Part shown: in pieces, positions 7,822-36,220 of the stretch | Position numbering within the stretch: the stretch's first letter is position 1 | Layout of the letters: each line of letters starts with the position of its first letter | Assembly: GCA_022565235.1 (NCBI GenBank) | Contig: JADFJW010000003.1 | Coordinates: 1 to 41,761, forward strand | DNA length: 41,761 nt | Source: Nanobdellota archaeon | GTDB taxonomy: Archaea > Nanobdellota > Nanobdellia > Woesearchaeales > GW2011-AR4 | Direction of reading: 5' to 3' | Translations under genes and position numbers: made by a program | The notes under the pieces: generated by a model | Told to the model about the DNA's origin: nothing | Databases searched by the model: none | What the model saw: the letters and a program-made list of their open reading frames with translations, nothing else

Positions 7822-9199
7822 TAGGTTTTTTCTTTTTGTCAATCAGCCCATTGTTTTTGATCACATCTTTGTAGAAGTATGCGCTGTCTTTCCATGTTCT
7901 CTCAAGAGTCTCAAAATTAACGTGTATTAATCCGAATCTTTTAGAGTATCCCCACTCCCACTCAAAATTGTCCATTTGAGACCATACTAAATAACCTTTC
8001 AAATTTACTCCGTCTCGAATGGCTTCCCATGCTTCTTTAAAATGTTCTTTTAAATAATTAATTCTCTTGATGTCATGTACTTTCTTATCTTTGGTCAGAA
8101 AATCTTCAAATGCGGCTCCGTTTTCAGTAATGTATACTGGTATATCCCTATAATATCTTTTCAGCATTAACAACATATTGTGTATTCCATGAGGATATTT
8201 TTCCCAACCCATATCCGTATATTCGGATCCTTTAACTTTTACTTGTTCAATGCATAATTCATTTCTACACATCTTTTCTGCACGGTCATCCGACTTATAG
8301 ACAGTCCTAAAATAGTAATTGATACCCAAAAAATCGATTGGACTTCTAATAATATCCATATCCCCACTTTTAATCACTGGTGTCTTTCCTCTTTCTTTGA
8401 AAAAGTTAAACAACATTCGTGGATAAGATCCTCTAAATAATGGGTCTAGGAACCAAGAATTCTTAAGTTCATGCTGCTTTTGTGCAGCAAGTTGATCTTC
8501 GTTGGAATTGCTATTTGCAAATACTTCATGATTGCTCAATGCAATTCCTATTTTTCCTTTAAATCCAAGTTTTCTATATATTTGAATTGCTTTTCCATGT
8601 GAGAGAAGAAGATTATGTGCTACTTGAAGGGCTATTTTCATATCCTTGATACCTGGAGCTTTTTTTCCAAAAGCATATCCTTCATAAGCAACAACAGCAG
8701 GTTCGTTAATAGTAATCCACAAAGAAATTTTATTGCCTAATTCTTTAAAAATGAAAGTTGCATACGATACAAATGCATCCACGGTTTTTCCATTTAACCA
8801 GCCGCCTTTTTCCTGCAACTTTTGTGGCAAGTCCCAATGGTAAAGAGTAACAACAGGCTGAATATTGGCAGCCAGCAATTCATTTACCAAACTTCTGTAA
8901 AACTTTAAGCCTTTATTGTTTGGTTTTCCAACTCCATTTGGAAAAATCCTGGGCCACGAGATAGAAAATCTGTAGCTCTTAACACCCAGTTTCCTCATTA
9001 TTTTGATGTCTTCTTTATACCTATGATAATGATCGCACGCTACGTCTCCAGTTTCGTGATTTTGAATTTTTCCAGATTTATGAGTAAAATTATCCCAAAT
9101 AGACTCTCCTTTGCCATCCTCATTCCACGCACCCTCTACTTGGTATGCGGATGTCGCCGTTCCCCATACAAATCCCTTTGGAAATATATAATTTGCCAT
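7805..9199 (-). CDS. bglA: GH1 beta-glucosidase
   Basis: FPKGFVWGTATSAYQVEG, YRFSISWPRI, TLYHWDLP, TINEP (acid/base Glu), ITENG (nucleophile Glu), DNFEW and RFG. Confidence 0.95.
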   Translation of the reverse strand: MANYIFPKGFVWGTATSAYQVEGAWNEDGKGESIWDNFTHKSGKIQNHETGDVACDHYHRYKEDIKIMRKLGVKSYRFSISWPRIFPNGVGKPNNKGLKFYRSLVNELLAANIQPVVTLYHWDLPQKLQEKGGWLNGKTVDAFVSYATFIFKELGNKISLWITINEPAVVAYEGYAFGKKAPGIKDMKIALQVAHNLLLSHGKAIQIYRKLGFKGKIGIALSNHEVFANSNSNEDQLAAQKQHELKNSWFLDPLFRGSYPRMLFNFFKERGKTPVIKSGDMDIIRSPIDFLGINYYFRTVYKSDDRAEKMCRNELCIEQVKVKGSEYTDMGWEKYPHGIHNMLLMLKRYYRDIPVYITENGAAFEDFLTKDKKVHDIKRINYLKEHFKEAWEAIRDGVNLKGYLVWSQMDNFEWEWGYSKRFGLIHVNFETLERTWKDSAYFYKDVIKNNGLIDKKKKPIKKKF

Positions 9200-22673: not shown

Positions 22674-23168
22674 ATGCAATTTTACAGTTCAATAGCAAAA
22701 GGCTATGATGAGCTTTATTCAGAAGAGCAGCAAATCAAGCATAGGATAATAAAAGAGAACCTAAAGATCAAGAATTCTGATTTTCTCCTTGATGTAGGAT
22801 GCGGAACCGGATTATTGGATTTTAATTGCAATGTTATCGGGTTAGATCCATCATTGGATCTCCTAATGCAAAATAATCCTTTGGGTCATATCGAAAATAA
22901 AATAGTGGCTCGTGCCGAAAATATGCCGTTTAAGGACAATTCATTCGATAAGGTAATATCGGTGACATCTATGCACAATTTCGACAGTATAGGCAAGGGA
23001 ATCCAGGAGATAAAACGAGTAGGTAAAAATGAGTTCGCCTTCAGCATCTTGAAAAAAACGAAGAATTTTGATTTAATTGAAGAGAAAATAAAAAATAATT
23101 TTAATATCCGAAAAATAATTGATGGTAAAAAGGACTGGATTTTTATTTGTAGTAAGATTTTTAAATAA
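22674..23168 (+). CDS. Class I SAM-dependent methyltransferase
   Basis: YDELY, LLDVGCGTG, GLDPS and AENMPFKDNSFD. ATG at 22674 preferred over 22617. Confidence 0.85.
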   Translation: MQFYSSIAKGYDELYSEEQQIKHRIIKENLKIKNSDFLLDVGCGTGLLDFNCNVIGLDPSLDLLMQNNPLGHIENKIVARAENMPFKDNSFDKVISVTSMHNFDSIGKGIQEIKRVGKNEFAFSILKKTKNFDLIEEKIKNNFNIRKIIDGKKDWIFICSKIFK

Positions 23169-23188
23169 CTGATTACTTTCTAAATATA

Positions 23189-23393
23189 CCCCACCTAGCT
23201 CAACGGTAGAGTGTTCGGCTGTAGGTAAAATCCACTATTCGACTAAGCTTTATGCTAATGGATGAAGAATAGATAGCTGATCCCGAAAGGTTGCTGGTTC
23301 AAAACAGCTTTTTTGCTTCCGCAAAAAACCTGGGAAAAACAGGGATTTTGCTACGCAAAATCAAAAAAGCTGATGAAAGTCCGGCGGTGGGGA
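23189..23393 (+). tRNA. tRNA-Tyr(GTA) with two introns (~23225-23281 in the anticodon loop; 23304-23379 at 59/60)
   Basis: Acceptor CCCCACC/GGTGGGG+A (C1:G72, A73 archaeal Tyr identity), D-stem GCTC/GAGT, anticodon stem TTCGG/CCGAA with CT-GTA-G, T-stem GCTGG/CCGGC, TTCAAA|T loop. TATA TTTAAATA upstream; CCA not encoded. Confidence 0.88.
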
Positions 23394-23402
23394 TCAATTC
23401 TT

Positions 23403-24431
23403 TTAAGTAATCAGCCCAGAGAAAACAAAACCTAAAACATTCATAAAGATAAAATACATGGTCAAAGAACCGATCAAAAAAATTGGTATATACTTTAAAC
23501 CGCTTTTAATATTGCCTTTTTCTACAGTAGAGACAATAAGCGAAGAGAAGAATGATATTACCACTAAAGACAATATTGAGAACATTTTGAAATTATTAGG
23601 ATCTACAGAGACCTGGGTAATAGTTAAGGGCAAAGTTCCTACAGTGCTCGTTGCAGCCGCAACTCGGGATACAAAACCAAGGATAACTATCAAAAGATGG
23701 AATGATAAAGAGAAAAGCAAAGGCGCAATAACAATTACTATCGCCCCTATAAAGATAGTGTAGCCTACAGCTGAAGCGGATATTTCTTCCTTCAGGACTT
23801 TCACTTCCCTGATATTTTCAACTATCCGGTCTATCAAGTCGGCTATTTGGCCTCCGCCTTCAATCTCGCTTATCATCAGGTCAATCGTCCTTTTCAGCAT
23901 CGGGCTGTCGTATTTCTGTCCAAGTTCGGATAATGCCTTGCCAACTTCATGGCCGGTCATTACTTTTTTTGACACCTCTGCCATCTCATTTGCCAGTACA
24001 TCAAATCTTGGATTGATAGATCCAAGCAAAGCATTCTCAAATGACATGCCCCCTTTTAAATTAGACGATACAACCTGCAAAAATTCCGGCAACATTTCCT
24101 CCATTTTCTTTGTCCTGAAGAATATCTGCAAATCCACATAAAAATAAATCACCAGAATGATAAAAGTTGCCAGCAGGGTCTGAATTACAAACCAGGATAG
24201 TGCAGATGCAGCTAACACAATCAACTGGGAGTATTGCAGAAGAAAGGGGTATACAAAGAGCAGATAGATAATTGCAGTTATGAGCGTTGTAAGGTAAAAT
24301 AATGCCCCAAAGAATTTGTAAGGGACGCGCGGAATGCCTGCTTTTAGCAGAAACATCCTTAAATGAGGTATAGCCCTTTTTGGCACGAATGCTTTGCCGA
24401 ATTCTTCCAAAAATATGATTCTAAATGCCAT
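23403..24431 (-). CDS. Type II secretion F / TadC-like pilus platform membrane protein
   Basis: MEEMLPEFLQVVSSNLKGGMSFENAL and KYDSPMLKR; multi-TM; downstream of the secretion ATPase. Confidence 0.88.
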   Translation of the reverse strand: MAFRIIFLEEFGKAFVPKRAIPHLRMFLLKAGIPRVPYKFFGALFYLTTLITAIIYLLFVYPFLLQYSQLIVLAASALSWFVIQTLLATFIILVIYFYVDLQIFFRTKKMEEMLPEFLQVVSSNLKGGMSFENALLGSINPRFDVLANEMAEVSKKVMTGHEVGKALSELGQKYDSPMLKRTIDLMISEIEGGGQIADLIDRIVENIREVKVLKEEISASAVGYTIFIGAIVIVIAPLLFSLSFHLLIVILGFVSRVAAATSTVGTLPLTITQVSVDPNNFKMFSILSLVVISFFSSLIVSTVEKGNIKSGLKYIPIFLIGSLTMYFIFMNVLGFVFSGLIT

Positions 24432-24435
24432 TTTC

Positions 24436-25260
24436 TTACAAATTTACGGTTGGTTTCACTGTATTAAACACAGACAAAAATAATAATTGCACTATAATCA
24501 TAAACACAACTGCAATTAGAAAGTGAGTCATGGTTATGCTAAAGTTAATGAAGCTTGATAGTACAATAAATAAGGTCATGCCTATAGAGGGTATTACCAC
24601 TGCAATCAGCATGTAAAAAATAACAATAGTGTTCAGTTTTTTCCCATATCTCTTAATCTCGATGTTTTGTTCGTCCCTTATCTCATCCAAAACAGCCCTT
24701 AATGGTTTTGTAACGTCAATTCCAAGCTTCAATGCATTGTTTACATGGAATAATATTTTCCTGAATTTTTCTGATGGGGAATATACCATAGCACTTTCCA
24801 GTGCCTTCTCCAGAGAACTCCCGGTGCTTATATCATCGACTATCTCCTTCATGTATTTTGCCGCAACCCCATAACTCTTGCTTGTATAAATCAAGGCGTT
24901 AAGTATGGGCCTGCCCGAATAAAGCTGGATAAGCAGGTATTGACCTACAAATAAAACTTCTCTGTCTATCTCCTTCTGCCTTTGGACTATTTTTGCTTTA
25001 AGCTTCAAAAATGCAAACCTGAATACTGATATGAAGATGACGATGAATGCGACTGGAATTAAGATCAGGGGAAGTCCTGCTTTATCCACTATGAAAAAAA
25101 AAAGAATTGTAAGCCCTAATGAGAATGGCAAAGAAAATTTCAGGCTTTTATAAACAAATTCCTGCGGAGTTGTTTTTATATGGGCAATCCTAAGCTCCTT
25201 TTTTAGGTCTGGAAAAGATGAACTTATCCTTTGCACCAGCTTGTTTATAGCTATTCCCAT
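24436..25260 (-). CDS. Type II secretion F / TadB-TadC-like platform protein
   Basis: EIDREVLF, SGRPILNAL, GSSLEKALESAM..SPSEKFR and TM helices. Confidence 0.85.
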   Translation of the reverse strand: MGIAINKLVQRISSSFPDLKKELRIAHIKTTPQEFVYKSLKFSLPFSLGLTILFFFIVDKAGLPLILIPVAFIVIFISVFRFAFLKLKAKIVQRQKEIDREVLFVGQYLLIQLYSGRPILNALIYTSKSYGVAAKYMKEIVDDISTGSSLEKALESAMVYSPSEKFRKILFHVNNALKLGIDVTKPLRAVLDEIRDEQNIEIKRYGKKLNTIVIFYMLIAVVIPSIGMTLFIVLSSFINFSITMTHFLIAVVFMIIVQLLFLSVFNTVKPTVNL

Positions 25261-25262
25261 CT

Positions 25263-26717
25263 TTATACAACTTGCTTAAAAGGTTTTTTCGCATAGTATT
25301 TAGACATGATAATCCCTATTTTGTTAATATCGGTTATATTATTCTTCATCATCCATTTTAAAATATCAATCTTTTCATCGATATCTTCCATAATTTTTTC
25401 CTTTGAAAGCCCCATGTAGAGATTTAACGTTTCAAACATAGTAGTTGGTTCGTCGACCTTCATGAGAGTGTCTTTCATCACATCGAGTTGCATAATTGGC
25501 TTTGCATCGCCATTATGCATCACCTCCCCTATTTGCAATGTTCTTCTTCTTCCATTTCTCCTGTCTATATGCTGCACCACTATTAATGACAAAGCTGAGA
25601 GCATCTGTTTGGGAAGGCCTATGGGCGGCTGTGTCAGCCTGTTTATGGTTTCCCTTACATTGTTTGCATGCAAAGTTCCATAAACGCTATGGCCGGTGTG
25701 CATCGCCTCAAAAAGAACCTCTGCTTCTGCTTTTCTTCTTATTTCTCCTATAAGAATCCTGTCAGGCCTCATTCTCAATGAATTTATAATCAAATCAAGC
25801 ATACTAATGCCTCCCTTCCCTTCTGGATTTGGAAGCCTGGTTTCTAACGGTACCCAATGGAGGCTATCTGGGAGCATTAACTCGCGGGTATCCTCCAAAG
25901 ATATTATTCTCTGGTTAGGCGGGAAAAAATTCGAGATAACATTTAGCATAGATGTCTTACCGCTGGCCGTACCTCCTGAAATGATGATGGAAAGCTCATT
26001 TTGTACAGCCATCCACAAAATAGCAGCTGCTTCGTATGATATGCTTTTTTCTTTAATGAAATCTATTATTGTCCATGGCTTTACCGCGAACTTCCTTATT
26101 GTTATTGTATTGCCCTTTGATGATATCGGGCTTAGGGTTGCATTTACTCTGTCTCCTGTCTTTAGATGCGCATCCATCAAAGGATTTAAGACTGTTATCT
26201 CTTTACCGACATCCCTCCCTATAATCGTTGAGTAATACCTTATTCTTTCTTCATTGGTGATTCTTATATTTGTCTTGAGCCAGCCGTGTTTCCTGTGATA
26301 AACCCAGACTAACTCATGTGCATTATTGACCACAATCTCCTCGAGATTTTCGTCTTTAAGCAGTATTTCAATATCACCTAGCCCTATATTCTGCTGCAGG
26401 ATATAATTTATAAGCATGTCCATGGTTTTTTTATTTGCTGTAGGAAAGTACTTGCGCAGCAAAACCGCTATACCCTTTTTAAACCGGTTCTGTATATTTG
26501 ATGCTTCAAACGACTCCTCTTCAGGTGTTTTTGTCTGCTGCACAACAAACTCTTCCCTTATTTTTTCAAGAATAATCTTTGTAGTTTCGCTTATATTGGT
26601 TATAGAAATATTATAAATCGGAACAGGTTCACTTTCATCAGAATAAATGGAAATTCCTATTATTATGTCATTTACAGTTAACTCATAAGAATCCATTAGT
26701 TGTTTAGCAAGTGCCAA
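25263..26717 (-). CDS. Type IV pilus / secretion ATPase (TadA/CpaF/VirB11 family)
   Basis: LEEIVVN, GDRVNA, ITIRKF, Walker A GGTASGKT, EDTREL, LRMRPDRILIGEIR and HTGH..GTLHAN. TTG start with GAGGTG RBS. Confidence 0.94.
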   Translation of the reverse strand: MALAKQLMDSYELTVNDIIIGISIYSDESEPVPIYNISITNISETTKIILEKIREEFVVQQTKTPEEESFEASNIQNRFKKGIAVLLRKYFPTANKKTMDMLINYILQQNIGLGDIEILLKDENLEEIVVNNAHELVWVYHRKHGWLKTNIRITNEERIRYYSTIIGRDVGKEITVLNPLMDAHLKTGDRVNATLSPISSKGNTITIRKFAVKPWTIIDFIKEKSISYEAAAILWMAVQNELSIIISGGTASGKTSMLNVISNFFPPNQRIISLEDTRELMLPDSLHWVPLETRLPNPEGKGGISMLDLIINSLRMRPDRILIGEIRRKAEAEVLFEAMHTGHSVYGTLHANNVRETINRLTQPPIGLPKQMLSALSLIVVQHIDRRNGRRRTLQIGEVMHNGDAKPIMQLDVMKDTLMKVDEPTTMFETLNLYMGLSKEKIMEDIDEKIDILKWMMKNNITDINKIGIIMSKYYAKKPFKQVV

Positions 26718-26737
26718 TTTCCACCTCTTTTTTATTC

Positions 26738-26867
26738 TATGGTGGCGGAACTAAATAATCTAGCAATAATTTCAATCTCTGATTGAAATCTACGAACAAC
26801 ATTGAGTATGTTATTCCGCCACTGTGTTAGAGAACACAAGCTATTTTACTTAATTATTTGTGTTCTC
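26738..26867 (-). promoter_or_regulatory. Structured putative 5' leader of the pilus operon
   Basis: Inverted repeats GTGGCGGAA/TTCCGCCAC, ATTTCAATC/GATTGAAAT and GAGAACACAA/TTGTGTTCTC lie between a minus-strand TATA (~26907-14) and the ATPase RBS. Confidence 0.5.
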
Positions 26868-27059
26868 CGCTATAATATCTGATATTATCAATTATTTTAT
26901 TGATTGTTTTTAAATTTTGTTAATTATGTCAAAGAATAAACTTAATTATGGGCTAAAATTATGATGTACATGGGTGGGCACCGAACCGCACGAGCGAAGT
27001 GTGACGCGTGCTCTGTCGTAAAGAACTGGTGGGAGGTTGAAAATTTCTCGAAGTGAAAT

Positions 27060-29249
27060 TTACTCCATAGGAACTGCTGACCATAGCGTCCAGTCATTGC
27101 TTGGCGCATACGCCCCAAAAACAAAGTATGGCGGCTTATTCTGGCCAAAATATGAGTATTGTATATCTGTCCATTTTTGAGGTATTTGCGGGCTCCCCAT
27201 ACCCATTCCATAAACATTGCTTCCAAACAATCTCCAGGTTTTCATCAAGCCATGAAAATCACTTAAATCAGTTGTTGCATCTGCCCCCGGTTCCACTGTT
27301 ATAGCTTTATCGTACCCATATTTTTTTAATATTGAAACTGTTTCTTTAATTGGAGCATTTCCCTGGCCAGGGCTTAGATGCTCATCCTGATAGCCATAAT
27401 TATCTGCAAGATGCACATTGCCGACCATTCCTTCTTTTGCCAAACTCTCCACTTGCTTTAGATACCAATCTTTGAATTTTGCATCATTATGCTCACGATT
27501 AAGTTTAGGATCCTCCTGCCAGAACTTTCTCCACATATTCAGATGTCCAGTATCCAGTGTAGCTTTAATGTGTGTTGCAGCAATTTTTTCCGCTTCTGCT
27601 CTGCTTATTCCGGCATAAAATGGATTTTCCTGCAGCATCCCTTTCAGTCCGGGCACTACTGCTTCAATTAACTTTTTTTCATCCATTTCAGTCGGCTTTC
27701 TGCTTACTCCCATCTGTATTCTAGGCTCTGTAAGCAGCTCAACCATCCTTTCTCTCGATTTTTTAATGACCCATTTTAATTCCTCTATATGGCCGCCGAA
27801 CCTTTCTGGAAACAGATTCTCAATATTAACTACAACCGGATTGTTGGGCTCTTTTGTCCTGCGCATAGCATGAATTCCTGCTTCAGCATACATCCTTGCA
27901 CCATGCTGCTCCAGCCTTTTTATCGGCGTTATCAGGTTTTTTGCAGTTTCTCGTGTATCCTCTGCTTGCTGTTCTTGGGAAGCTGAGGCTTGTCTTGAAT
28001 GTTCTAAGCTCCTTTGTGTGTCAATAATCTCTCTATCAATAATTTCTAAGGGATGTTGAGTATCAGTAGGTAGAAGCCCCAGGTTTGCAGAAATTGAATT
28101 AAAAGCTGGCTCTTGTTTCATTATTTTCCATTTTTCTTCATCTGGGATACTCTCATCAAGTTTTTGGTAAAATTCCCTTGCATTTCTTAATTTCTCTAAA
28201 GTTTCAATTTCTCTATCCACTCTTTGAGCGAATTGCAGTGCCCACCCACGCGCATGGCCTTCCTGTGTAAATAATGTTGCTCTTAAGAACTGCTCTTCAG
28301 GGTATATCTTATCATAAAAATTCGGCGCCTTTCCCTCCTTTTCCGTCATATATTTATTGTAATCATCTGCTTCCTTCTTGAAATAGTCAAAATGCCTCAG
28401 CACCGTATCAAATCTTCCTGTTTCTTTATTATATCTTGGAACTCTCCCCTTGGTAGGACTCCAGGAATCTATTATCTTTTCTCCTTCATAACCTATGTAG
28501 TCACCCTTTTTTATCAATGCCTTGTTTCCGTCTTGGTCAATCCCTTCGTAATCTTTTTCAGAAACTAACCAAACAGGATAAGCGACTAACCTGTCTTTTT
28601 CCACTGTCTCCATTTTCTGGCTGGTTCTTGCATCCAATAAGTCAAACTTTGCATCAAATTCTTGCGTATGAGACATTCTGAACATTAATCTTCCTGATTC
28701 ATCTCTGGCAAGGTTTAAATTATGGGTTTCATCATCCAGATGCATGTCTGTCATCGGCCTTTCAAATTCTCCGGAGTGCATTACTACACTGCCGCCCCCC
28801 ATATCCGCCTGAAAATCAATCGCCCTCTTTAATTCAAATAAATCCTGGTAAGCGCCTGGAACTGAGAAATTACCCCTCTCATCTCTACCCATCATCCCCA
28901 TAAGGCCAAAGCTGGCATGTGTATTGAATCTTACTTCATTAGCCATCTGCATTTCCCTTAAAGCCTGCCTTTGGTCTTCTCCATACATTTCCGGAGTTTG
29001 TTGATTTCTATTTCCTATTCTGTAGCCGGGGAATTGTATTTCCAGCTTGCCTGCACCCATTCTTATTTTCGAATATATTCCGGCTACATTAGATGCAGAG
29101 ATCCCCATAGGAACTGACATTCCGATATCCTGGATGCCTAAATTTACATCAGGCTCATTAGCCGGTTGCGCGCCATATGTTTCCGGTTCCATGGCATTAA
29201 AATAATCAACCATGGGATGGTGTCCATAATTAAGGTCTCCAAAGTTCAT
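27060..29249 (-). CDS. Xylose-isomerase/AP-endonuclease-2-like TIM-barrel protein with large insertion
   Basis: Metal-ligand motifs NTHAS, VVMHSGE, NIENL, TLDTGH, VHLADN, DEHLSPGQG and TVEP; ~310 aa lie between HSGE and IEN. ATG 29249 preferred over TTG 29270. Confidence 0.8.
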   Translation of the reverse strand: MNFGDLNYGHHPMVDYFNAMEPETYGAQPANEPDVNLGIQDIGMSVPMGISASNVAGIYSKIRMGAGKLEIQFPGYRIGNRNQQTPEMYGEDQRQALREMQMANEVRFNTHASFGLMGMMGRDERGNFSVPGAYQDLFELKRAIDFQADMGGGSVVMHSGEFERPMTDMHLDDETHNLNLARDESGRLMFRMSHTQEFDAKFDLLDARTSQKMETVEKDRLVAYPVWLVSEKDYEGIDQDGNKALIKKGDYIGYEGEKIIDSWSPTKGRVPRYNKETGRFDTVLRHFDYFKKEADDYNKYMTEKEGKAPNFYDKIYPEEQFLRATLFTQEGHARGWALQFAQRVDREIETLEKLRNAREFYQKLDESIPDEEKWKIMKQEPAFNSISANLGLLPTDTQHPLEIIDREIIDTQRSLEHSRQASASQEQQAEDTRETAKNLITPIKRLEQHGARMYAEAGIHAMRRTKEPNNPVVVNIENLFPERFGGHIEELKWVIKKSRERMVELLTEPRIQMGVSRKPTEMDEKKLIEAVVPGLKGMLQENPFYAGISRAEAEKIAATHIKATLDTGHLNMWRKFWQEDPKLNREHNDAKFKDWYLKQVESLAKEGMVGNVHLADNYGYQDEHLSPGQGNAPIKETVSILKKYGYDKAITVEPGADATTDLSDFHGLMKTWRLFGSNVYGMGMGSPQIPQKWTDIQYSYFGQNKPPYFVFGAYAPSNDWTLWSAVPME

Positions 29250-29357
29250 TTTTTGTACAATCCCGTACAACAGTGTATTGGGGCATCTGCGATGCCCATA
29301 GACGGTACACTATTATGGGATTTTGTATGTTTGTTTTTAATTTTAGCTTACAAAACT

Positions 29358-30767
29358 TTACCAATTCAGCATATCATGATGTTTTTTAAAATGATGATAA
29401 ATTGTCCATGCTGTACTTTTTGCCGATGTTTCTGCGTTCCCTCTTGCCAATGTATCTCTCATCGCTTGTGTACTGCTCTTTTTTTTCGGCCTCGCTTCTT
29501 TTTTTGCTTTTTTTGCAGCGCCAAACAATTCTGAAAAACCCTTAAAAATTGAAGTGTAAGGGCTCATAAATGAAGAAGTCTTCTCAGCTTTTTTCTCAGT
29601 TTTTGCTCCGATTTCTTCCCCAGCTTCTTTTAGGTACCTCATCAATTCATCCCCTAAAGATTCCATTGCAGCCTTGACAGAAGCATCTATCACTCCCAAA
29701 AGCTGAAAATCTTCCAACTCTCGCATCTTTTTGTAATTTTCAACTTCCTGGTCAGACCATGCGTATACCCTAAAATCTATTTCAACTCTGCCGAGATGCA
29801 ATGGTCCTTTTTGATACTCCTGCTGGTAATTCATCTCCGGCCTGGTCCTAAATAAATAATGTATTAACAAGCATTGATTAAATGCCCCCGGTTTTCTTGC
29901 TAACAGCTCAACTTCCATCATAGAGCTTTCAAATGCAACCAGTAAATCAGGTGTTTCTGTCTTTGTTAAGTCTAGTTGCAAGCGCTGTATATTCCTTAAG
30001 TAAGGTTTTACCCAATGCATATACATCCTTATAACTTCATAATGCTGTCTTAGAAACTTTAATGTAAACACTCTCCTGTTTTTCATCTCCTCAAAAGTAT
30101 GCTCTTTCCATGCCAAAAATGTCCTTAATTTTCTTTTGAGCACTTCCCTTACCTTCCTGTTAAAAGCGCCTCTTTCTCTATCTACAACATCATCAGTATC
30201 CTCCTGTTTTTTTGGGTGTGTTGAGAAAAATAAATCAGGTAAGGTTGTAAACTGAACTTCCCGTGCCATACCATAAACAGATGCTGGATTTTTTGCGCCT
30301 TGCTCGACTAGGTCTACCCATATGCCTTTTAATGTTATTTCAGCGCTTTCAGAGCTTCTGCTTTTTGTAAAGCTGTCATTGTAATAGCTTAACCTCTCAT
30401 CCAGAATTCTTAGCTCCCTTACTAACTGGAACAACTCGCGAACCATTTTCCCTATAGTCGCCAGAAATTGAGATACCTTATCTTGCTGCAATCCTAATCT
30501 TTGCTGGGATGCTCCAAAAAAAGAGGAATTTTCAGCAGCCGCAAAAACATCTGTTATCTTATCAATAGTTGGAAAACCGGAAAAATACCTCAAATAATGC
30601 AGAATCCAGAAATATGGCTCCTCAATAGAAATATTATAGCCCTCATAATGTAACCTATATCTTCTTGCCGGATTGGGAAATCCTGTTTTAATATAAATGC
30701 CTCTTGTTTGCTCTGCAACTTCCTCATTTGTAAAACCAAATTTCTTCAGGTCAACAACTGTTACCAT
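29358..30767 (-). CDS. Hypothetical alpha-helical protein (~470 aa)
   Basis: Long ORF with protein-like composition; GGTGA RBS precedes ATG 30767 (30773 alternative). No family recognised. Confidence 0.8.
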   Translation of the reverse strand: MVTVVDLKKFGFTNEEVAEQTRGIYIKTGFPNPARRYRLHYEGYNISIEEPYFWILHYLRYFSGFPTIDKITDVFAAAENSSFFGASQQRLGLQQDKVSQFLATIGKMVRELFQLVRELRILDERLSYYNDSFTKSRSSESAEITLKGIWVDLVEQGAKNPASVYGMAREVQFTTLPDLFFSTHPKKQEDTDDVVDRERGAFNRKVREVLKRKLRTFLAWKEHTFEEMKNRRVFTLKFLRQHYEVIRMYMHWVKPYLRNIQRLQLDLTKTETPDLLVAFESSMMEVELLARKPGAFNQCLLIHYLFRTRPEMNYQQEYQKGPLHLGRVEIDFRVYAWSDQEVENYKKMRELEDFQLLGVIDASVKAAMESLGDELMRYLKEAGEEIGAKTEKKAEKTSSFMSPYTSIFKGFSELFGAAKKAKKEARPKKKSSTQAMRDTLARGNAETSAKSTAWTIYHHFKKHHDMLNW

Positions 30768-31054
30768 AACCATACTCACCCACAAAATTATATTTAATTT
30801 GTTGTAGATTCGTAGCATTGAACTGTAAATAATTATTATCTAATTCTAGTTACAATTCAATATACATCAAACCTCTCTTTCCCTATATACAGTATACTAA
30901 TTTGTATATTAATATAGTAATAGTATTTAAAGGTTTTGGAAAATTTAATTTTCCAAGTATCGAAAAATTAAAAAATATTTTTCGGACCTTTAAACTAGAA
31001 AATACCTTTAGAATTTTTCGCTGTTTAAAGGTATCTATGAAGATTAGGATGTTG

Positions 31055-31453
31055 TTAGAGCGGCATAATATCATTAGTATAATCACGCCTAAAAGTTTCA
31101 GCTGCTTCATAACCTATTTGTTCTGGTGAAGAATATTCCCTGTATTCATCTGGACGCACCATTTTGTTCCCTCTTATCTTAGCAAAATAAACATTCTGTT
31201 CTGGATTTGCACTTCCTATAGGAATCTCTACAGTAGTTTTAGTCCCAGAATATCGATCCTGGATAAGGAAGGTTAAAATCGGGCAATAACCATCCTCTCT
31301 TGCATTAACTTTTACCAATGTTTTTTCAGGAATTTTGCCATTTAGTCTACTTGCTACAGCTTCTTGGAAAGCTATCTCAACTCTTTGGCTTAAAGTTTCA
31401 CCACTTGCTCCATCAGCACCTTGTCCAGCAATAGATGTCATTTCTCCACTCAT
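31055..31453 (-). CDS. Hypothetical protein
   Basis: 132-aa ORF with GAGGT upstream. Confidence 0.6.
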   Translation of the reverse strand: MSGEMTSIAGQGADGASGETLSQRVEIAFQEAVASRLNGKIPEKTLVKVNAREDGYCPILTFLIQDRYSGTKTTVEIPIGSANPEQNVYFAKIRGNKMVRPDEYREYSSPEQIGYEAAETFRRDYTNDIMPL

Positions 31454-31678
31454 TTTTCATAACCTCATAAATTTTTATTTCTTAGTATATCCTAGAATTT
31501 AGTTTTCAATTGAAAAGGCCCTTTGAGAATATACTAAATTTTTGGGCCTATAACAGCAGTAGAAGCAAAAGCAATAGATTCAAAGCTAACAATAACTTTG
31601 CAGAATTTAATTTTTTATTTATGTTAGCCATTTTTATAATTTTATACAAATGGGGTTTTGTATTTAAACTTTACGATT

Positions 31679-32890
31679 TCATAAGAACTTTACTAACTTA
31701 GATTGATTTTTAATTTCTTTTAATAACAATGATTTTTCTAGAATTCTGCTTAAATCCAGATCAAATTTCTTTTTAACTAGTTTCTTTGCGTATTCCAGCA
31801 TCAATTCTTTAGACGAGAATTCAATAGATCTAGATGCCATTGATTTTCTTGCAGCTTCTCTTGTTACCCATACCCCAAGCGGCAAAGTATAATCTCCAGT
31901 AACAAACCTCAATGCCAAGACGCTGCCTTGTCTTTTCATCTCATTTAATTTTTCCAGAATAGCTAATCTTACAGTATAATAACCGCCTGCTGTCTGCTCT
32001 GCATAGTATTTTCTTCCTTCATAAGGCTCATAATCTGTCATAGAATTATTTGGATTTGAAACTAAAGTCTCAAACAATTCATAGCTCCATACTTCCGGAA
32101 AGCATAGCATCAAATAATGATTTCCTAAATAGTTGCCAAAGAAAGCAGAATAATTGATCTGATTATACTCTTTTATTTTTTTAATCAAATGTTTTCCCAA
32201 TGTATCATCAGTAGCTGTAATAGACCATCTTGTTGGAACTAATTTTCTGTTTTTACCAAGACCCAATATACCAACACTCAAAATCTTAGATAAAAAATTC
32301 TCATCAAATTTATTCTCATACAAATAAATCAATGCCTCATTAGCCTTTAGATCAGTATCATAATGAACTTTCTGCACTTTTGTATGTATATTTGGATTTT
32401 CAGTTAACTTAGCTTTTTTCAGCTCTGCATACGGCCCGGTAGGAGCCATCAGATTATCATAGTTCATCCTGAAATGGGGTTTATCTTTTAGATTAATATC
32501 CATATCTACCGGTTTAGAAGCCATGCTCACTTCCTGATTTAACTCAAGAAATTTATTTCTCTGCTTTACGCTTATTTTTTCCCTTGAATTTATTAAAGAA
32601 GATCTTAAATCAACTATTTTCGGAATCTGGAAATTATTGACGGACCAGTATTTCGGAGCGTCATATAGCCATGTATCCTCAGTTTCTTCCGGCGGAGCTA
32701 AAATCCCGATGTTTATGGAAGGATAACCATACCTTCCGATGAACGGGGCAACACCCTCTGTCGAGAAGTTTTCTTTCACAATCCTGTTTTTTATCCTTAT
32801 CTGAGAATAAGCCTTTGCGCATATAGGGCAGTTATAATTACCACAATTAAACAAAGGATGGTTTTTAATATTGTATTTTGGAAGGTGCAT
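31679..32890 (-). CDS. nreA: Archaeal Nre DNA repair protein (PCNA-interacting)
   Basis: N-terminal Cys cluster, PFIGRYGYP, RKLVPTRWSITATDD, GGYYTVRL, PLGVWVTRE and C-terminal PIP box QSKLVKF. Confidence 0.9.
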   Translation of the reverse strand: MHLPKYNIKNHPLFNCGNYNCPICAKAYSQIRIKNRIVKENFSTEGVAPFIGRYGYPSINIGILAPPEETEDTWLYDAPKYWSVNNFQIPKIVDLRSSLINSREKISVKQRNKFLELNQEVSMASKPVDMDINLKDKPHFRMNYDNLMAPTGPYAELKKAKLTENPNIHTKVQKVHYDTDLKANEALIYLYENKFDENFLSKILSVGILGLGKNRKLVPTRWSITATDDTLGKHLIKKIKEYNQINYSAFFGNYLGNHYLMLCFPEVWSYELFETLVSNPNNSMTDYEPYEGRKYYAEQTAGGYYTVRLAILEKLNEMKRQGSVLALRFVTGDYTLPLGVWVTREAARKSMASRSIEFSSKELMLEYAKKLVKKKFDLDLSRILEKSLLLKEIKNQSKLVKFL

Positions 32891-32900
32891 AATTAATGCA

Positions 32901-32925
32901 AAGAATTTAGTTAATTTAAAGGTTT
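32901..32925. repeat. 25-bp direct repeat, left copy (AAGAATTTAGTTAATTTAAAGGTTT); contains the nre BRE/TATA on the minus strand
   Basis: Identical to 33856-33880. Confidence 0.9.
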
Positions 32926-32943
32926 GGCTTTATCATAAAAATT

Positions 32944-33789
32944 TTACAAATATTTCTTATGCGCTCTGAGATATCTTCTGAAGAAATAATTGATGAAATC
33001 ATTTTCATCTTTGCTCAATGCATGATAGTAAGATTTCCTTTTTTTAGATTCTATGATCAACAATGGATAGTTGCTCTTTCTCAATATATGAGCGATAATC
33101 AGCCTTCCAATCCTGCCATTTCCGTCCCCAAAAGGGTGTATCATTTCAAATTTGTAATGTGCTCTCGCTGCTAGTTCAACGGGATTTAGAATTTTTTTAT
33201 TCTTATTGTACCATTTGAAAAATTCTTTTAAGAGCTGGTCTAAATCCTGCCAATCTGGCGCCCTATAACTGCCAACTCTGACTAAATAATCTCTTATTTT
33301 TCCAGAAATGTCCGGTTTTGTTTCAAAAAATACTTCTTTATGCCATTGCAGGATTTTTTTAAGAGACATTTCATTTTTTTCATTTAGCACTCTAAAAAAT
33401 ACTTTTGAATGATTTATTGTTTCTTGTATATCTCTTAATGGCTTATTTGGAGCTATCTTTCTTTTGATTATGTCTTTTGTTTCCTCCAAGGTTATTGTAG
33501 AACCCTCTATTGCATTTGTGTTATAAGTAAACTCAATTGAAAAATCCAATAAAATCTCTTTTTTTACTGATTCCGGATAATGTTTCCATTCTTTCCGGAA
33601 GTTCTTTTTTATGGTTTTTAGCTTTTTTATTAAGTCTTCCTGCATGCATCTATGTAAAAACGACTCTTTGATATCGTCAATATTGGCAGGTATTTTTTTG
33701 CCGAGATATTTCTCGCGGTGCACTACTTTACCTTCCACTCTGAAAGAATGGGCTAGATAATAGTAATTTTTATGTTTTACAATATTCAT
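32944..33789 (-). CDS. Fic family protein (class II, auto-inhibited type)
   Basis: Fic motif HPFGDGNGRIGR; inhibitory TNAIEG motif N-terminal to the catalytic motif. Confidence 0.93.
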   Translation of the reverse strand: MNIVKHKNYYYLAHSFRVEGKVVHREKYLGKKIPANIDDIKESFLHRCMQEDLIKKLKTIKKNFRKEWKHYPESVKKEILLDFSIEFTYNTNAIEGSTITLEETKDIIKRKIAPNKPLRDIQETINHSKVFFRVLNEKNEMSLKKILQWHKEVFFETKPDISGKIRDYLVRVGSYRAPDWQDLDQLLKEFFKWYNKNKKILNPVELAARAHYKFEMIHPFGDGNGRIGRLIIAHILRKSNYPLLIIESKKRKSYYHALSKDENDFINYFFRRYLRAHKKYL

Positions 33790-33855
33790 GTCGGTAGTAG
33801 TACAATTACTTTTATTTAAATTTTGTGGTTTTTTGATAGAATGTAATTGTATGGT

Positions 33856-33880
33856 AAGAATTTAGTTAATTTAAAGGTTT
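33856..33880. repeat. 25-bp direct repeat, right copy
   Basis: Identical to 32901-32925. Confidence 0.9.
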
Positions 33881-33932
33881 TGAAATAATATTAATAATCA
33901 CATTTATATATGAGGTTGGAATACAATTCAAA

Positions 33933-34958
33933 ATGCTAACACCAAAACAATATGAACAAATGAAAGATGAATTAGATAATTGCCAAAATCCTATTTTCTT
34001 CTTTGATGATGATCCGGATGGGTTGTGTGCTTTCCTGCTGTTTTATCGCTATAAAAAAGAAGGCCATGGCTTTGTTGTAAAAACACATCCTAAATTAGAT
34101 GCAAGATCTGCACCGAAAATAGAGGAATATGATGCAGACAAGGTTTTTGTTCTTGATGTAGCTAACTTAGAGCAGGATTTTATTGACGCTTCTAAAGTTC
34201 CGGTGATATGGATAGACCACCATGGACCGACTGAAAGAGACAATGTGAAATACTTTAACCCCCGGCTTAATGATAAAACCGCCAATATTCCGACAACATA
34301 CCTATGTTATAAAGTTGTTCAGCAGGATTTATGGATTGCGATGACCGGATGCATAGCAGATTATTATATGCCTGATTTTTTTGATGAATTTAAGGAAAAA
34401 TACTCTGACTTATTGAATGGCAAAAAAACTGTAGGAGACATCTATTTTGACAGCAGGATTGGAACTTTAATCAAGGTTCTTTCTTTCTGCTTGAAAGGTA
34501 AAACTGGCGATGTTTTGAAATGCATGAAAATCCTGACAAGGATAGAAAGCCCTTATGAAATACTAAACCAGGAAAGCGCAAAAGGAAAATTTATATTCCA
34601 AAGATATGAAAAGATAAATAAGATGTATGACAGTCTGCTGGATGATGCAGTTAAGGCAGAAGGAAAAGAAAAACTCATGGTATTTACTTATGAACATGAC
34701 AAGATGAGCTTTACCGGTGACTTATCCAATGAGTTATTGTACAAATTTCCGGATAAGGTAATTATTGTTGGAAGAAAGAAAGACGAGGATGTAAGGATGA
34801 GTATAAGGAGCAGGAACATCTTAATACCGCCAATCTTAGAAAAGTCTCTTGCAGGATTAGAGGGCTATGGCGGCGGTCATGAACATGCCTGCGGGGCAAA
34901 TATCAAGCAGGTAGATTTTAAGGAATTTGTTAAGAGAATGAATGAAAATATAACCTAA
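33933..34958 (+). CDS. DHH/DHHA1 family phosphoesterase (RecJ/NrnA-like)
   Basis: DDDPDG, VLD, IDHH, NP, IAD, SIRS and GGGHEHACG. Confidence 0.88.
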   Translation: MLTPKQYEQMKDELDNCQNPIFFFDDDPDGLCAFLLFYRYKKEGHGFVVKTHPKLDARSAPKIEEYDADKVFVLDVANLEQDFIDASKVPVIWIDHHGPTERDNVKYFNPRLNDKTANIPTTYLCYKVVQQDLWIAMTGCIADYYMPDFFDEFKEKYSDLLNGKKTVGDIYFDSRIGTLIKVLSFCLKGKTGDVLKCMKILTRIESPYEILNQESAKGKFIFQRYEKINKMYDSLLDDAVKAEGKEKLMVFTYEHDKMSFTGDLSNELLYKFPDKVIIVGRKKDEDVRMSIRSRNILIPPILEKSLAGLEGYGGGHEHACGANIKQVDFKEFVKRMNENIT

Positions 34959-35467
34959 ACCTTTAATCTCTCATTGATCATATTAACAATAAAATCTTTT
35001 TTATCCTTAAGGCCATGCCTTTTTGCATAAATCTCAAGATTTTCTTTTTTTATTTTGGAATTAAGCCTTGCAACCTTGTCATTTATCTTATTAATCCGGT
35101 TTATCACCATATTAAGCTTGCCTTCCATGCTCCTCGGGACCGAAATAACAAGTATCTTATCAAACGCTTCATTAATATAGAACAATTTACTGCCGCCAAA
35201 TGTTTTTTGCTCTGCCTTAATCATTTCTATCAATGCGGCATTTCTGCTCACCTTGCTTAAAGATATTATTACGGCTTCTTTGTAGGCTTTATTATTGATT
35301 AAGCTCAATTCTATTGCATCATTATTAGAATTAATGTCATTCAAAAATTCCTTAAATACCGGTTCATTATTTATATCCCTAAAATTAATATATTCTATAG
35401 AGTCTATGCTCCTATTTATGTCAATACTAGAAATAAGATTCCTATAAACAGGACCTTCTGCGTACAT
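34955..35467 (-). CDS. Hypothetical protein
   Basis: 170-aa ORF with GGGGGTG RBS and a TATA-like element upstream. Confidence 0.6.
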   Translation of the reverse strand: MYAEGPVYRNLISSIDINRSIDSIEYINFRDINNEPVFKEFLNDINSNNDAIELSLINNKAYKEAVIISLSKVSRNAALIEMIKAEQKTFGGSKLFYINEAFDKILVISVPRSMEGKLNMVINRINKINDKVARLNSKIKKENLEIYAKRHGLKDKKDFIVNMINERLKV

Positions 35468-35584
35468 CTAACACCCCCAATCAAAGTTTCATGCTTTCTT
35501 AATATATAAGGTTTTTGGGTGTTTTATGATTATTTGCGCAAAATAATTAAATTTATAAAGAAATTACTCATCTATACTTTTAAT

Positions 35585-35760
35585 GCGCTGGTGGTCTAAT
35601 GGTTATGACTCGAGCCTTCCAAGCTCGGTATCTGGGTTCGAAACGATCTTTTCCGTGAATTGCGAGCGAACTCGCTTCGCTCGTCGCGGGTAACCGTAAA
35701 AGCTCGACCAAAATCGGGCTTTTCCTACGGAAAAGAACGATGAAAGTCCCAGCCAGCGCA
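35585..35760 (+). tRNA. tRNA-Gly(TCC) with 104-nt intron at 59/60 (35643-35746)
   Basis: Acceptor GCGCTGG/CCAGCGC+A, anticodon stem CGAGC/GCTCG with CT-TCC-AA, T-stem CTGGG/CCCAG, TTCGAA|T loop. TATA TTTATAAA at 35552-59. Confidence 0.92.
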
Positions 35761-35779
35761 TTTTAATTAATACTTAAAA

Positions 35780-36220
35780 ATGGGAACTATAATTATATTC
35801 ATCTGGATATGGGCGGCTATGGTAGCAAATGGATTCTGGGAAGCATATGTAGAGGGTAAGCGTGCATGGGATGAAGGAAAGCTTGGATGGAAGATAAAGA
35901 CAAAAAAGCGCGTATGGCTGACAGCATACCATTTCTGGTTGTTTTTTGTTATGTGGCCATTGCTTTTAACATTGCCATTCATAATTTTTGGGTTTGATTT
36001 AAAATTACTGGGTATTTTATTAAGTGCATTTTTTTCGGGATTAATAATCGAAGACCTAACTTGGTTTATTGTAAATCCAGTCTTTAAACTAAAGCATTTT
36101 AATTCGAATTATGTCGAATGGTATCCTTGGTTAAAAATAGGAAAGTTTGAAATGCCTCTTTATTATTTAATTGCTTTAATTCTTAGTATTGTTTCCTGGT
36201 ATTTTTTGTGGAGTCAATAA
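35780..36220 (+). CDS. Trp-rich integral membrane protein
   Basis: About four hydrophobic helices with motifs EAYVEG..AW, TAYH and IEDLTWF..NP. Confidence 0.75.
   Translation: MGTIIIFIWIWAAMVANGFWEAYVEGKRAWDEGKLGWKIKTKKRVWLTAYHFWLFFVMWPLLLTLPFIIFGFDLKLLGILLSAFFSGLIIEDLTWFIVNPVFKLKHFNSNYVEWYPWLKIGKFEMPLYYLIALILSIVSWYFLWSQ

What the first reader, a model, noticed from the sequence alone, without database searches (positions are those of the whole stretch)
23298..23385. Related long T-loop (59/60) introns in two different tRNAs: candidate mobile intron family
Seen: Tyr TTCAAA|ACAGCTTTTTTG...CAAAAAAGCTGATGAAAG|TCC (76 nt) and Gly TTCGAA|ACGATCTTTTCCGT...ACGGAAAAGAACGATGAAAG|TCC (104 nt, 35643-35746). 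They share the site, the 5' AC and 3' GATGAAAG ends, and the junction: TTCR/TGAA helix, AG|T bulge, and AA|A facing one extra A (relaxed BHB). Both have a T-run/A-run terminal stem and a C-TAC-G hairpin near the 3' end, but different interiors. Established: BHB introns at non-canonical sites, including the T-loop, occur in Thermoproteales and some DPANN, and are usually short. Inference: a hairpin element that targets the universal TTCRAAT loop and brings its own splice signal, so insertion is silent. This is the best candidate for an undescribed system in the window.
Basis: partly seen in the sequence, partly recalled or inferred. Interest (0 to 1): 0.85.

Follow-up and report, generated by a model that had tools for sequence, protein, structure and literature searches.

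The report
Mobile T-loop introns in archaeal tRNAs
Two hidden tRNA genes in this small archaeal genome are each interrupted in the T-loop by related introns from a large family that has been copied between different tRNA genes across a whole archaeal order, giving an unusually clear natural record of how tRNA introns spread.

Summary
The window holds tRNA-Tyr(GUA) (23189-23392) and tRNA-Gly(UCC) (35585-35759). Each has an insert between T-loop positions 59 and 60 (76 nt and 104 nt). ARAGORN and Rfam miss both genes.

In the 592-kb genome, 10 of about 21 recognisable tRNA genes carry a 59/60 insert. All share one junction: T-stem, AG|U bulge, 4-bp UUCR:YGAA helix built from T-loop and intron, a 3x1 loop with the 5' cut, then an intron stem.

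Introns in unrelated tRNAs are 88-89% identical while their exons are 51-55% identical. The junction signature occurs in 30 of 41 genomes of the order and 116 of 401 of the class.

Orthologous Gly and Tyr genes in sister genomes carry different introns, a 53/54 intron, or none.

Best reading: endonuclease-spliced introns repeatedly copied between tRNA genes. This resembles the intron transposition described in Thermoproteales, but here it is tied to the universal T-loop. Splicing and the copying route are inferred, not shown. No RNA data were available.

The parts
23189..23392 (+). tRNA-Tyr(GUA) gene in three exons (23189-23224, 23282-23303, 23380-23392); no encoded CCA
   Evidence: ARAGORN call after in-silico removal of the T-loop insert; sequence; not found by ARAGORN or Rfam as it stands
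23225..23281 (+). 57-nt intron at the canonical 37/38 position of tRNA-Tyr
   Evidence: ARAGORN intron call; homologous intron present in Tyr orthologues of the 22 relatives read
23304..23379 (+). 76-nt T-loop (59/60) intron of tRNA-Tyr; 88% identical to the T-loop intron of tRNA-Arg(UCG) at G000:C6:6831-6979
   Evidence: (BLAST E 3e-21)
23298..23301 (+). T54-A57 (TTCA), exon strand of the 4-bp central helix; pairs with intron TGAA at 23374-23377; 5' cut after 23303, 3' cut after 23379 (bulge A23378 G23379 | T23380); single A23373 faces the 5' loop
   Evidence: MFE fold; pair counts
35585..35759 (+). tRNA-Gly(UCC) gene in two exons (35585-35642, 35747-35759)
   Evidence: ARAGORN call after in-silico removal of the insert; Rfam tRNA model reaches only 19.4 bits on the 5' part
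35643..35746 (+). 104-nt T-loop (59/60) intron of tRNA-Gly; 88% identical (93% over 88 nt by BLAST) to the T-loop intron of tRNA-Ser(UGA) at G000:C4:57347-57550
   Evidence: (E 2.9e-31)
35656..35697 (+). 42-nt G+C-rich hairpin module, present only in the long form (Gly, Ser); the short paralogues (Ala, probable Leu) have 9-15 other letters here
   Evidence: alignment; contigs of paralogous short forms bridge exactly this stretch (tables 5 and 5c)
35637..35640 (+). T54-G57 (TTCG), exon strand of the central helix; pairs with intron TGAA at 35741-35744 (G.U at the fourth pair); bulge A35745 G35746 | T35747; single A35740 faces the 5' loop
   Evidence: MFE fold

Best explanation
These are archaeal protein-spliced tRNA introns of the bulge-helix-bulge kind, inserted between T-loop positions 59 and 60. 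[quoted passage not shown] Inferred mechanism of removal: in the precursor, the intron's 3' segment YGAA pairs with the universal T-loop bases U54-U55-C56-R57. This gives a 4-bp helix flanked by the T-stem and a 3-nt bulge (A-G|U60) on one side. On the other side lie a 3-nt loop (A58-A59|A) facing one nucleotide, and the intron's own long stem. The splicing endonuclease EndA cuts at both marks. RtcB joins the exons and probably circularises the intron. The exon half of the signal is the same in every tRNA and the intron supplies the rest, so any copy can work in any tRNA. That would explain why this site fills up. Most likely route of spread, inferred and least certain: DNA-level copying between T-arms (gene conversion or template switching). 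It would use the short identical flanks, GGTTCRAA(AC) and (Y)GAAAGTCC. Introns then grow and shrink by hairpin modules, and are sometimes lost.
For: Genes: removing the insert restores a cloverleaf that ARAGORN calls in 8 of 10 cases in this genome. The remaining 2 have further introns and I read them by eye as Leu-UAA and Ser-GGA. In relatives, 65 of 75 got a call. Structure: all 8 class-A T-arms fold by MFE into the same junction. On their alignment, 87.5% of cells pair against 75.6% in shuffles (0 of 500 reach it), 10 of 19 pairs change on both sides, and slid controls give 31-61%. The R57:Y pair is A-U 45, G-C 22, G-U 3, A-C 4 and A-A 1 in 75 introns. The two shorter class-B introns (His, Phe) fit the same layout with UUCG:YGGG; that is my reading of the sequence, since the MFE fold pairs differently. 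Homology and copying within the genome: intron identity is 0.88 for Gly/Ser and 0.88 for Tyr/Arg, against mature-tRNA identity of 0.55 and 0.51. Ala and the probable Leu share 0.89. So 6 of 10 T-loop introns here sit in >=80% families that span two tRNA types. In G303, one 65-nt intron is letter-identical in 3 tRNAs with different acceptor stems and differs by 1 nt in a fourth. An HMM of the family finds only the 8 tRNA copies in this genome (E<=3e-8) and no free-standing copy. Copying seen between genomes: one subfamily sits in Glu-UUC (G000), Ser-CGA (G002), Tyr-GUA (G008) and Gln-CUG (G009). Gly-UCC orthologues carry 59/60 introns of 13 to 104 nt and of different subfamilies in 11 genomes, one of which (G021) also has a 53/54 intron. 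Two more have a 53/54 intron only, and 6 have no T-arm intron, out of 19 Gly-UCC genes read in 19 genomes (a 20th locus, G037, looks like Gly-CCC). Tyr genes of G008 and G009 are 95-97% identical to the window's over 112-118 nt. Yet they carry another 59/60 subfamily (G008) or a 53/54 intron (G009), and G005 and G007 have none. Exon stems keep pairing through double changes among intron-bearing Gly orthologues. Enzymes: RtcB is present in G000 (E 3e-173). One EndA per genome was found in 33 of 41 genomes of the relatives set (19 of 19 high-quality). For the DNA route: reverse transcriptase was found in 3 of 41 genomes, against the intron signature in 30 of 41. The three identical G303 copies share the whole T-arm and 3 bases upstream.
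Against: There is no RNA evidence of splicing or circles. EndA was not found in G000 itself, which is 66% complete. The 5' cut lies in a 3x1 internal loop, not a strict bulge; 46 of 75 introns have this by a simple helix measure and the others vary. The lineage's EndA looks like a plain 189-191-aa alpha4-type enzyme, a type classically said to need a strict motif (PMC5829648, passages). Copies in relatives were found with a pattern that fixes the intron ends, so end conservation there is partly by construction. Only the scan of G000 was free of that. ARAGORN identities of multi-intron genes are unreliable (for example the Phe-AAA calls). In G000 the closest intron pairs sit in different T-stems, which leaves only about 8 + 3 nt of exon homology for a DNA route. 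No step of copying was observed.
Confidence: 0.82

Rival explanations
1. Same introns, but they spread at the RNA level. An excised intron pairs through YGAA with the T-loop of another tRNA or precursor, the host endonuclease and RtcB ligase insert it (reverse or mis-directed splicing), and the product is copied back into DNA.
For: Boundaries always lie at the splice sites, even where the T-stems of donor and recipient differ. The intron carries the strand that pairs with a universal target. All copies lie in tRNA genes, none elsewhere in G000. RNA recombination by archaeal endonuclease through motifs formed in trans is reported (PMC8707768; I saw the search listing and abstract only).
Against: Reverse transcriptase was found in only 3 of 41 genomes, and not in G009 (9 copies) or the complete G039. 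No cDNA-type footprints were looked for. Shared intron ends plus T-loop flanks give 10-13 nt of identity, which lets a DNA route give equally precise junctions.
Confidence: 0.2
2. Ancient vertical inheritance. T-loop introns were present in the ancestral tRNA genes of the lineage, were lost differentially, and look alike only because the splice motif constrains their ends.
For: One intron does behave vertically. The Ser-GGA type (G000:C17) forms its own cluster in the corresponding tRNA of 8 genomes of the family (cluster 1). The ends A...YGAAAG are largely dictated by pairing to UUCR.
Against: Interior identity of 88-100% between introns of unrelated tRNAs, against 51-55% for their exons. Orthologous genes that are 95-97% identical carry unrelated introns. 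The same subfamily sits in four different tRNAs in four sister genomes.
Confidence: 0.04
3. They are not spliced. The inserts are scars or small insertion elements that inactivate tRNA genes (pseudogenes), or they are assembly artefacts.
For: No RNA data. Standard tools do not recognise the genes.
Against: The same design occurs in independent assemblies of 30 of 41 genomes. Exon stems show compensatory changes. In the complete single-contig genome G039 the Rfam model finds only 14 tRNAs, and the only tRNA-Pro seen is the one with a T-loop intron. There are no target-site duplications at the junctions (read).
Confidence: 0.03
4. The family is kept because it does something: it shields the conserved tRNA 3' half from integrating elements, orders T-loop modification, or yields stable circular RNAs. 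On this view it is not merely tolerated selfish DNA.
For: High load: 10 of about 21 genes here. It persists across a class. Interior motifs and hairpin modules recur. The shielding idea is in print (Randau and Soll 2008, cited in PMC3239211, passage).
Against: Turnover is fast. Interiors are not conserved between subfamilies, sizes run from 13 to about 195 nt, and sister species do without the intron in the same tRNA. No Rfam family matches.
Confidence: 0.12

Closest known systems
Transposed tRNA introns of Thermoproteales (Fujishima et al. 2010, Mol Biol Evol; the paper itself is not held; I read it only through passages of PMC4090602, PMC4033280 and the preprint 10.64898/2026.10.13.758758)
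   Same: Protein-spliced introns at non-canonical sites, with near-identical intron sequences in different tRNA species of one genome. The arrival mechanism is unknown. [quoted passage not shown] Here the figure is 6 of 10 T-loop introns.
   Different: The lineage is different: small DPANN-type genomes, not Crenarchaeota. Here the family is tied to one universal site (59/60), where the exon half of the splice helix is the same in all tRNAs. The EndA is a single alpha4-size protein, not the (alpha-beta)2 type with the Crenarchaeal loop.
59/60 introns of Candidatus Micrarchaeum (ARMAN-2): pre-tRNA-Cys(GCA), and pre-tRNA-Pro(GGG) with 53/54 + 59/60 (PMC3239211, passages)
   Same: Same positions, both 59/60 and 53/54 (both occur here). 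Same superphylum. Relaxed or strict BHB motifs.
   Different: Those are two single cases in a genome with an epsilon2 three-unit endonuclease. No family, copying or order-wide spread is described in the passages I read. Here there are dozens of homologous copies and an alpha4-size enzyme.
Canonical 37/38 archaeal BHB introns
   Same: Same enzymes and the same helix-bulge logic. tRNA-Tyr in the window has one as well.
   Different: At 37/38 the intron must pair with anticodon-region bases that differ between tRNAs, so a copy is not portable. At 59/60 it pairs with UUCR, which is universal.
Repeated intron gains in Asgard tRNA genes (preprint 10.64898/2026.10.13.758758; abstract and section 2.5 read)
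   Same: Many hidden introns missed by standard tools, repeated gains, and placement at splice-competent sites.
   Different: In Asgard only 1.5% of 1,062 introns lie in cross-tRNA families, and copying between genes was not supported. Here cross-tRNA families dominate.

Membership tests
Archaeal BHB (endonuclease-spliced) tRNA intron | Two 3-nt bulges separated by a 4-bp helix, each bulge holding a cut site (strict hBHBh') | tested here: inconclusive
   The 3' bulge (AG|U) and the 4-bp helix are present in all 8 class-A folds. The 5' site is a 3-nt loop facing 1 nt in 46 of 75 introns, with other geometries in 29. This is a relaxed form, not the strict motif.
Archaeal BHB (endonuclease-spliced) tRNA intron | Removal at the predicted sites restores a standard cloverleaf tRNA | tested here: met
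   ARAGORN of 10 in G000 and 65 of 75 in the whole set. The mature T-loop becomes TTCRAAT.
Archaeal BHB (endonuclease-spliced) tRNA intron | Splicing endonuclease EndA and ligase RtcB encoded by the organism | tested here: inconclusive
   RtcB is present in G000. EndA (PF01974) was not found in G000, which is 66% complete. It is present once in 10 of 12 same-genus genomes and in 33 of the 41 searched.
Archaeal BHB (endonuclease-spliced) tRNA intron | Spliced tRNA and excised (circular) intron exist as RNA | not testable with these tools
   No usable RNA run was available.
Transposed (copied) tRNA intron families, Thermoproteales type | Closely similar introns (>=80%) in different tRNA species within one genome, with dissimilar host genes | tested here: met
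   Three pairs in G000 at 0.88-0.89; exons are 0.51-0.55 identical for the two pairs compared. Identical copies in 3 tRNAs of G303. Further same-genome pairs in G006, G007, G009 and G012.
Transposed (copied) tRNA intron families, Thermoproteales type | Patchy presence or different introns among orthologous tRNAs of close relatives | tested here: met
   Gly-UCC in 19 genomes and Tyr-GUA in 23 genomes. Gln-CUG and Leu-UAG are intron-free in G000 but interrupted in G009, G001 and G016.
Self-splicing group I / group II introns or homing-endonuclease introns | Ribozyme core or an intron-borne ORF | tested here: not met
   No Rfam family at gathering score in the window. Sizes are 13 to about 195 nt. 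The 131-400-nt range shows no enrichment, 11 hits against 13 control hits.
Box C/D sRNA-bearing tRNA intron (Haloferax tRNA-Trp type; recalled, not from a call) | C box (RUGAUGA) near one end and D box (CUGA) near the other, forming a K-turn | tested here: not met
   Only the Tyr copy has overlapping CUGA/UGAUGA letters at its 3' end. Other family members have CGACGAAAG or GGTGAAAG. There is no Rfam match.
Miniature inverted-repeat element / IS-type DNA transposon | Terminal inverted repeats plus a target-site duplication, and copies outside tRNA genes | tested here: not met
   A terminal stem exists, but the flanks (..RAA | TCC..) are not duplicated. nhmmer finds no copy outside tRNA genes in G000.

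The most novel reading that the evidence does not exclude
The family is a protein-free selfish RNA element. It is a hairpin that carries a four-base guide (YGAA) to the one sequence every tRNA shares, and it hijacks the host's own splicing endonuclease and RtcB ligase for both exit and entry (reverse or swapped splicing into T-loops) before being fixed in DNA. That would make it a new class of mobile element whose 'transposase' is the tRNA-splicing machinery, and a living model for how protein-spliced introns colonise genes.
Probability: 0.18. Interest if true: 0.88.

Novelty: new variant of a known kind. Interest (0 to 1): 0.64.

Why it matters
How archaeal (and by extension eukaryotic) tRNA introns arrive in genes is an open question. 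The reviews and the 2026 Asgard preprint I read say the route is unknown. This lineage offers an unusually clean record. It has one universal target site and dozens of short homologous copies. Different tRNAs of one genome carry identical copies. Host genes that are 95-97% identical carry three different T-arm intron states. That makes the question testable by population metagenomics and by simple in-vitro assays with a 190-aa enzyme.

It also explains a practical problem. Standard tools find 0 tRNAs in this window and only 14 in a complete relative genome. tRNA complements, and codon-usage or completeness inferences for these DPANN-type archaea, are therefore badly under-called.

Finally, an alpha4-size endonuclease cutting a non-strict motif would bear on the rules of substrate recognition.

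Tried and rejected
RNA evidence. The look-up of sequencing runs listed no RNA holder; two 'metatranscriptomic WGA' runs are probably DNA. Read laying on window 23100-35800 with X2, X4, X7 and X19 gave only contigs. The joints at 35655-35698/35702 and 23313-23364 carry other letters between their sides and have loose ends at the T-stem. They are therefore paralogous short-form introns of other tRNA genes, not intron-free alleles or spliced RNA. Nothing on expression or polymorphism follows.

Whole-collection scan of genome contigs. Of the five archaeal-titled loci read, one titled Nanoarchaeota and one of two titled Candidatus Woesearchaeota (L079, L091) showed the same design. So did a 6-kb contig titled Methanosarcinales (L080). 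The second Woesearchaeota-titled locus (L118) and a Nitrososphaeraceae-titled one (L115) did not. I take the lineage to be Woesearchaeota-like DPANN by this likeness only; the taxon of G000 was not determined.

Viral vectors. The pattern scan of viral contigs gave 35 matches, and 0 passed the T-stem plus acceptor check.

Longer or ORF-bearing copies. Not enriched.

Full tRNA inventory of G000 by relaxed stem rules. The output was swamped by noise, so the count of 'about 21 genes' is a lower bound. It is made up of 9 Rfam hits over the cut-off, C8:1684-1844, the 10 genes with a 59/60 intron, and Pro-GGG with a 53/54 insert.

Nearest-neighbour tally. Of 50 same-genus introns, the nearest neighbour was in the same genome in another tRNA for 16, in another genome with another key for 28, and in another genome with the same key for 6. 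The 27-nt host key is crude and splits true orthologues such as Ser-GGA, so I use it only as a rough figure.

C/D-box, MITE, group I and group II readings are rejected (see Membership tests).

Literature. Searches found no description of a T-loop intron family in Woesearchaeota or DPANN; one search found 0 papers holding all of DPANN, tRNA genes, introns and T-loop. Fujishima 2010 is not held.

Full report
**What is in the window.** ARAGORN finds no tRNA in the window, and Rfam finds nothing at gathering score. When the stretch between T-loop positions 59 and 60 is taken out in silico, ARAGORN calls tRNA-Tyr(GTA) at 23189-23392. That gene also has a 57-nt intron at 37/38. ARAGORN likewise calls tRNA-Gly(TCC) at 35585-35759. 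The T-loop inserts are 23304-23379 (76 nt) and 35643-35746 (104 nt). Both genes lie between ORFs.

**The genome.** The window is contig C30 of a 592,661-bp, 35% G+C assembly that is 66% complete. I scanned for T-stem + TTCRA + acceptor pairing and allowed an insert in the T-loop, with no assumption about intron ends. This found ten convincing genes with an insert at 59/60:
- Tyr, Gly, Ser-UGA, Ala-UGC, Glu-UUC, Arg-UCG, His-GUG and Phe-GAA, all called by ARAGORN after in-silico splicing.
- Two genes with further introns, which I read by eye as Leu-UAA and Ser-GGA.

There are also 9 tRNAs that Rfam recognises, one gene with an 80-nt intron, and a Pro-GGG with an 18-nt insert at 53/54. So about half of some 21 recognisable genes are interrupted in the T-arm. 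That inventory is a lower bound (searches were too noisy to extend it).

**Structure.** All eight class-A T-arms fold by minimum free energy into one junction. From the outside in:
- the 5-bp T-stem;
- a 3-nt bulge A-G-U60 on the 3' strand;
- a 4-bp helix of U54-U55-C56-R57 with intron YGAA;
- A58-A59 plus the first intron A, facing a single nucleotide;
- a long intron stem.

On the alignment, 87.5% of cells pair against 75.6% in shuffles (0 of 500 reach the observed value). Ten of 19 pairs change on both sides, and slid registers give 31-61%. Across 75 introns from 28 genomes, the fourth pair of the central helix is A-U 45, G-C 22, G-U 3, A-C 4 and A-A 1.

The two short class-B introns (His, Phe; 40 and 35 nt) fit the same plan with YGGG in place of YGAA. 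That is my reading of the sequence; the MFE fold pairs differently. The 5' site is a 3x1 loop in 46 of 75 introns, so the motif is relaxed rather than strict.

**Homology.**
- The Gly intron is 88% identical to the Ser-UGA intron (BLAST 93% over 88 nt, E 3e-31).
- The Tyr intron is 88% identical to the Arg-UCG intron (E 3e-21).
- The Ala intron is 89% identical to the probable Leu intron.
- The mature tRNAs of the first two pairs are only 55% and 51% identical.

The long form (Gly, Ser) equals the short form (Ala, Leu) plus a 42-nt hairpin module at 35656-35697. A family HMM finds the eight tRNA copies and nothing else in the genome. BLAST also finds one 26-nt piece next to tRNA-Gln on C10.

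**Relatives.** The junction signature GGTTCRAAA-N(30-130)-GAAAGTCC gives 87 hits in 30 of 41 genomes of the order, against 4 hits for the reversed-pattern control. That covers 12 of 12 same-genus genomes, 21 of 24 in the family and 8 of 16 other families. It also occurs in 116 of 401 genomes of the class-wide sample, with roughly 260 hits against about 33 control hits by my count of the table. The tallies include the unpublished genomes G004 and G360.

I fetched and analysed 77 of the 81 hits outside G004. Introns fall into many subfamilies that do not follow the host tRNA. One subfamily sits in Glu-UUC (G000), Ser-CGA (G002), Tyr-GUA (G008) and Gln-CUG (G009). tRNA-Glu carries four different subfamilies in five genomes. 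In G303, which belongs to another order, one 65-nt intron is identical in three tRNAs with different acceptor stems and differs by one base in a fourth.

**Orthologues of the two window genes.**

The 19 Gly-UCC genes read, in 19 genomes (a 20th locus, G037, looks like Gly-CCC), show the following:
- 59/60 introns of 13, 14, 19, about 24, 41, 69, 103 and 104 nt, of different subfamilies;
- a 53/54 intron instead (G001, G014);
- both sites occupied (G021);
- no T-arm intron (G015, G018, G020, G027, G030, G033).

Their anticodon and T stems keep pairing through double changes.

For Tyr-GUA, read in 23 genomes, G008 and G009 are 95% and 97% identical to the window over exon 1, the canonical intron and exon 2. 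Yet G008 holds a different 59/60 subfamily, G009 holds a 28-nt 53/54 intron, and G005 and G007 (same genus) have no T-arm intron.

One counter-example behaves vertically: the Ser-GGA intron (cluster 1, 8 genomes).

**Enzymes.** RtcB is encoded in G000. EndA was not found in this incomplete genome, but it occurs once in each of 33 of 41 genomes of the relatives set. In three same-genus genomes and one same-family genome it is a 189-191-aa protein with both EndA domains. It is collinear with the M. jannaschii homotetramer enzyme (1a79, E 2e-33). It lacks the six extra residues that the N. equitans alpha subunit has in that alignment. Reverse transcriptase was found in 3 of 41 genomes.

**Interpretation.** Shown:
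- hidden but intact tRNA genes;
- a conserved, covarying splice-type junction;
- homology of introns across unrelated tRNAs;
- rapid gain, swap, resizing and loss among close relatives.

Inferred: removal by EndA and RtcB, and the route of copying. I favour DNA-level copying through the short shared flanks, because reverse transcriptase is rare and the identical G303 copies share their whole T-arm. An RNA route by reverse or swapped splicing is not excluded.

The site preference has a simple reason. At 59/60 the exon strand of the central helix is the universal UUCR, so an intron that carries YGAA is portable.

**Comparison with the literature.**
- Introns at 59/60 and 53/54 are reported in ARMAN-2 (PMC3239211, passages).
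- Copying of introns between tRNA genes is reported for Thermoproteales (passages of PMC4090602 and PMC4033280; preprint section 2.5).
- Incomplete tRNA sets in DPANN were noted as a sign of unidentified disrupted genes (PMC5829648, passages).

My four searches found no description of this T-loop family. The 2010 paper and all supplements could not be read. I therefore class it as a new variant of a known kind.

Noticed in passing
L009 40-165 (G000:C10:21939-22064): A Gln-like 5' tRNA fragment is fused to a piece of about 100 nt whose first 26 nt are 96% like the Glu T-loop intron. Its acceptor is the one seen in G009's intron-bearing tRNA-Gln. It lies directly upstream of the intact, intron-free tRNA-Gln(CUG). 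It may be a remnant of an intron-bearing gene or of a rearrangement between intron copies.
   Followed up: partly
window 23225-23281: The canonical 37/38 intron of tRNA-Tyr is conserved in the orthologues of the 22 relatives read. It keeps RGATGA ... CTGA near its 3' end, which may be a K-turn or box C'/D-like motif.
   Followed up: no
G000:C12:2447-2537 (-): tRNA-Pro(GGG) has an 18-nt insert at 53/54. A second set of T-arm introns, ending GRAAA|TTC, occupies 53/54 in Gly and Tyr orthologues of relatives. ARMAN-2's Pro(GGG) is reported with the same site.
   Followed up: partly
G039 (complete single-contig relative), loci L206-L229: The Rfam tRNA model finds only 14 tRNAs over its cut-off in a complete 1.3-Mb genome. 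tRNAs for at least nine amino acids are not recognised, so most tRNA genes of the lineage are hidden.
   Followed up: partly
L236-L244 (G303): In this genome the D-loop, anticodon-loop and T-loop introns all share one hairpin module (a pyrimidine run, a loop, a purine run, then ACGGAAAGAA-like ends). The element type is therefore not confined to the T-loop there.
   Followed up: no
L202 (G023:C3:11784-11903) and window 35698-35746: Introns grow by modules. One intron holds a tandem duplicate of a whole 36-nt mini-intron unit around a G+C hairpin. Many introns hold an internal, degenerate copy of their own 3' end (AAAAGCTYGACCAAAA against AAAAGAWCGACGAAAG).
   Followed up: no
L080: A 6-kb contig titled 'uncultured Methanosarcinales archaeon' carries a tRNA-Ser with the same kind of T-loop intron. 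It is possibly a mis-binned contig.
   Followed up: no
G000:C4:57347-65333: Four of the ten tRNA genes with T-loop introns (Ser, Phe, probable Leu, His) lie on one strand within 8 kb.
   Followed up: no
window 7805-9199 (-): A full-length family-1 glycoside hydrolase (Pfam E 1.7e-183) lies in this very small genome, beside MetRS, SMC and type IV pilus-type ATPase genes.
   Followed up: no
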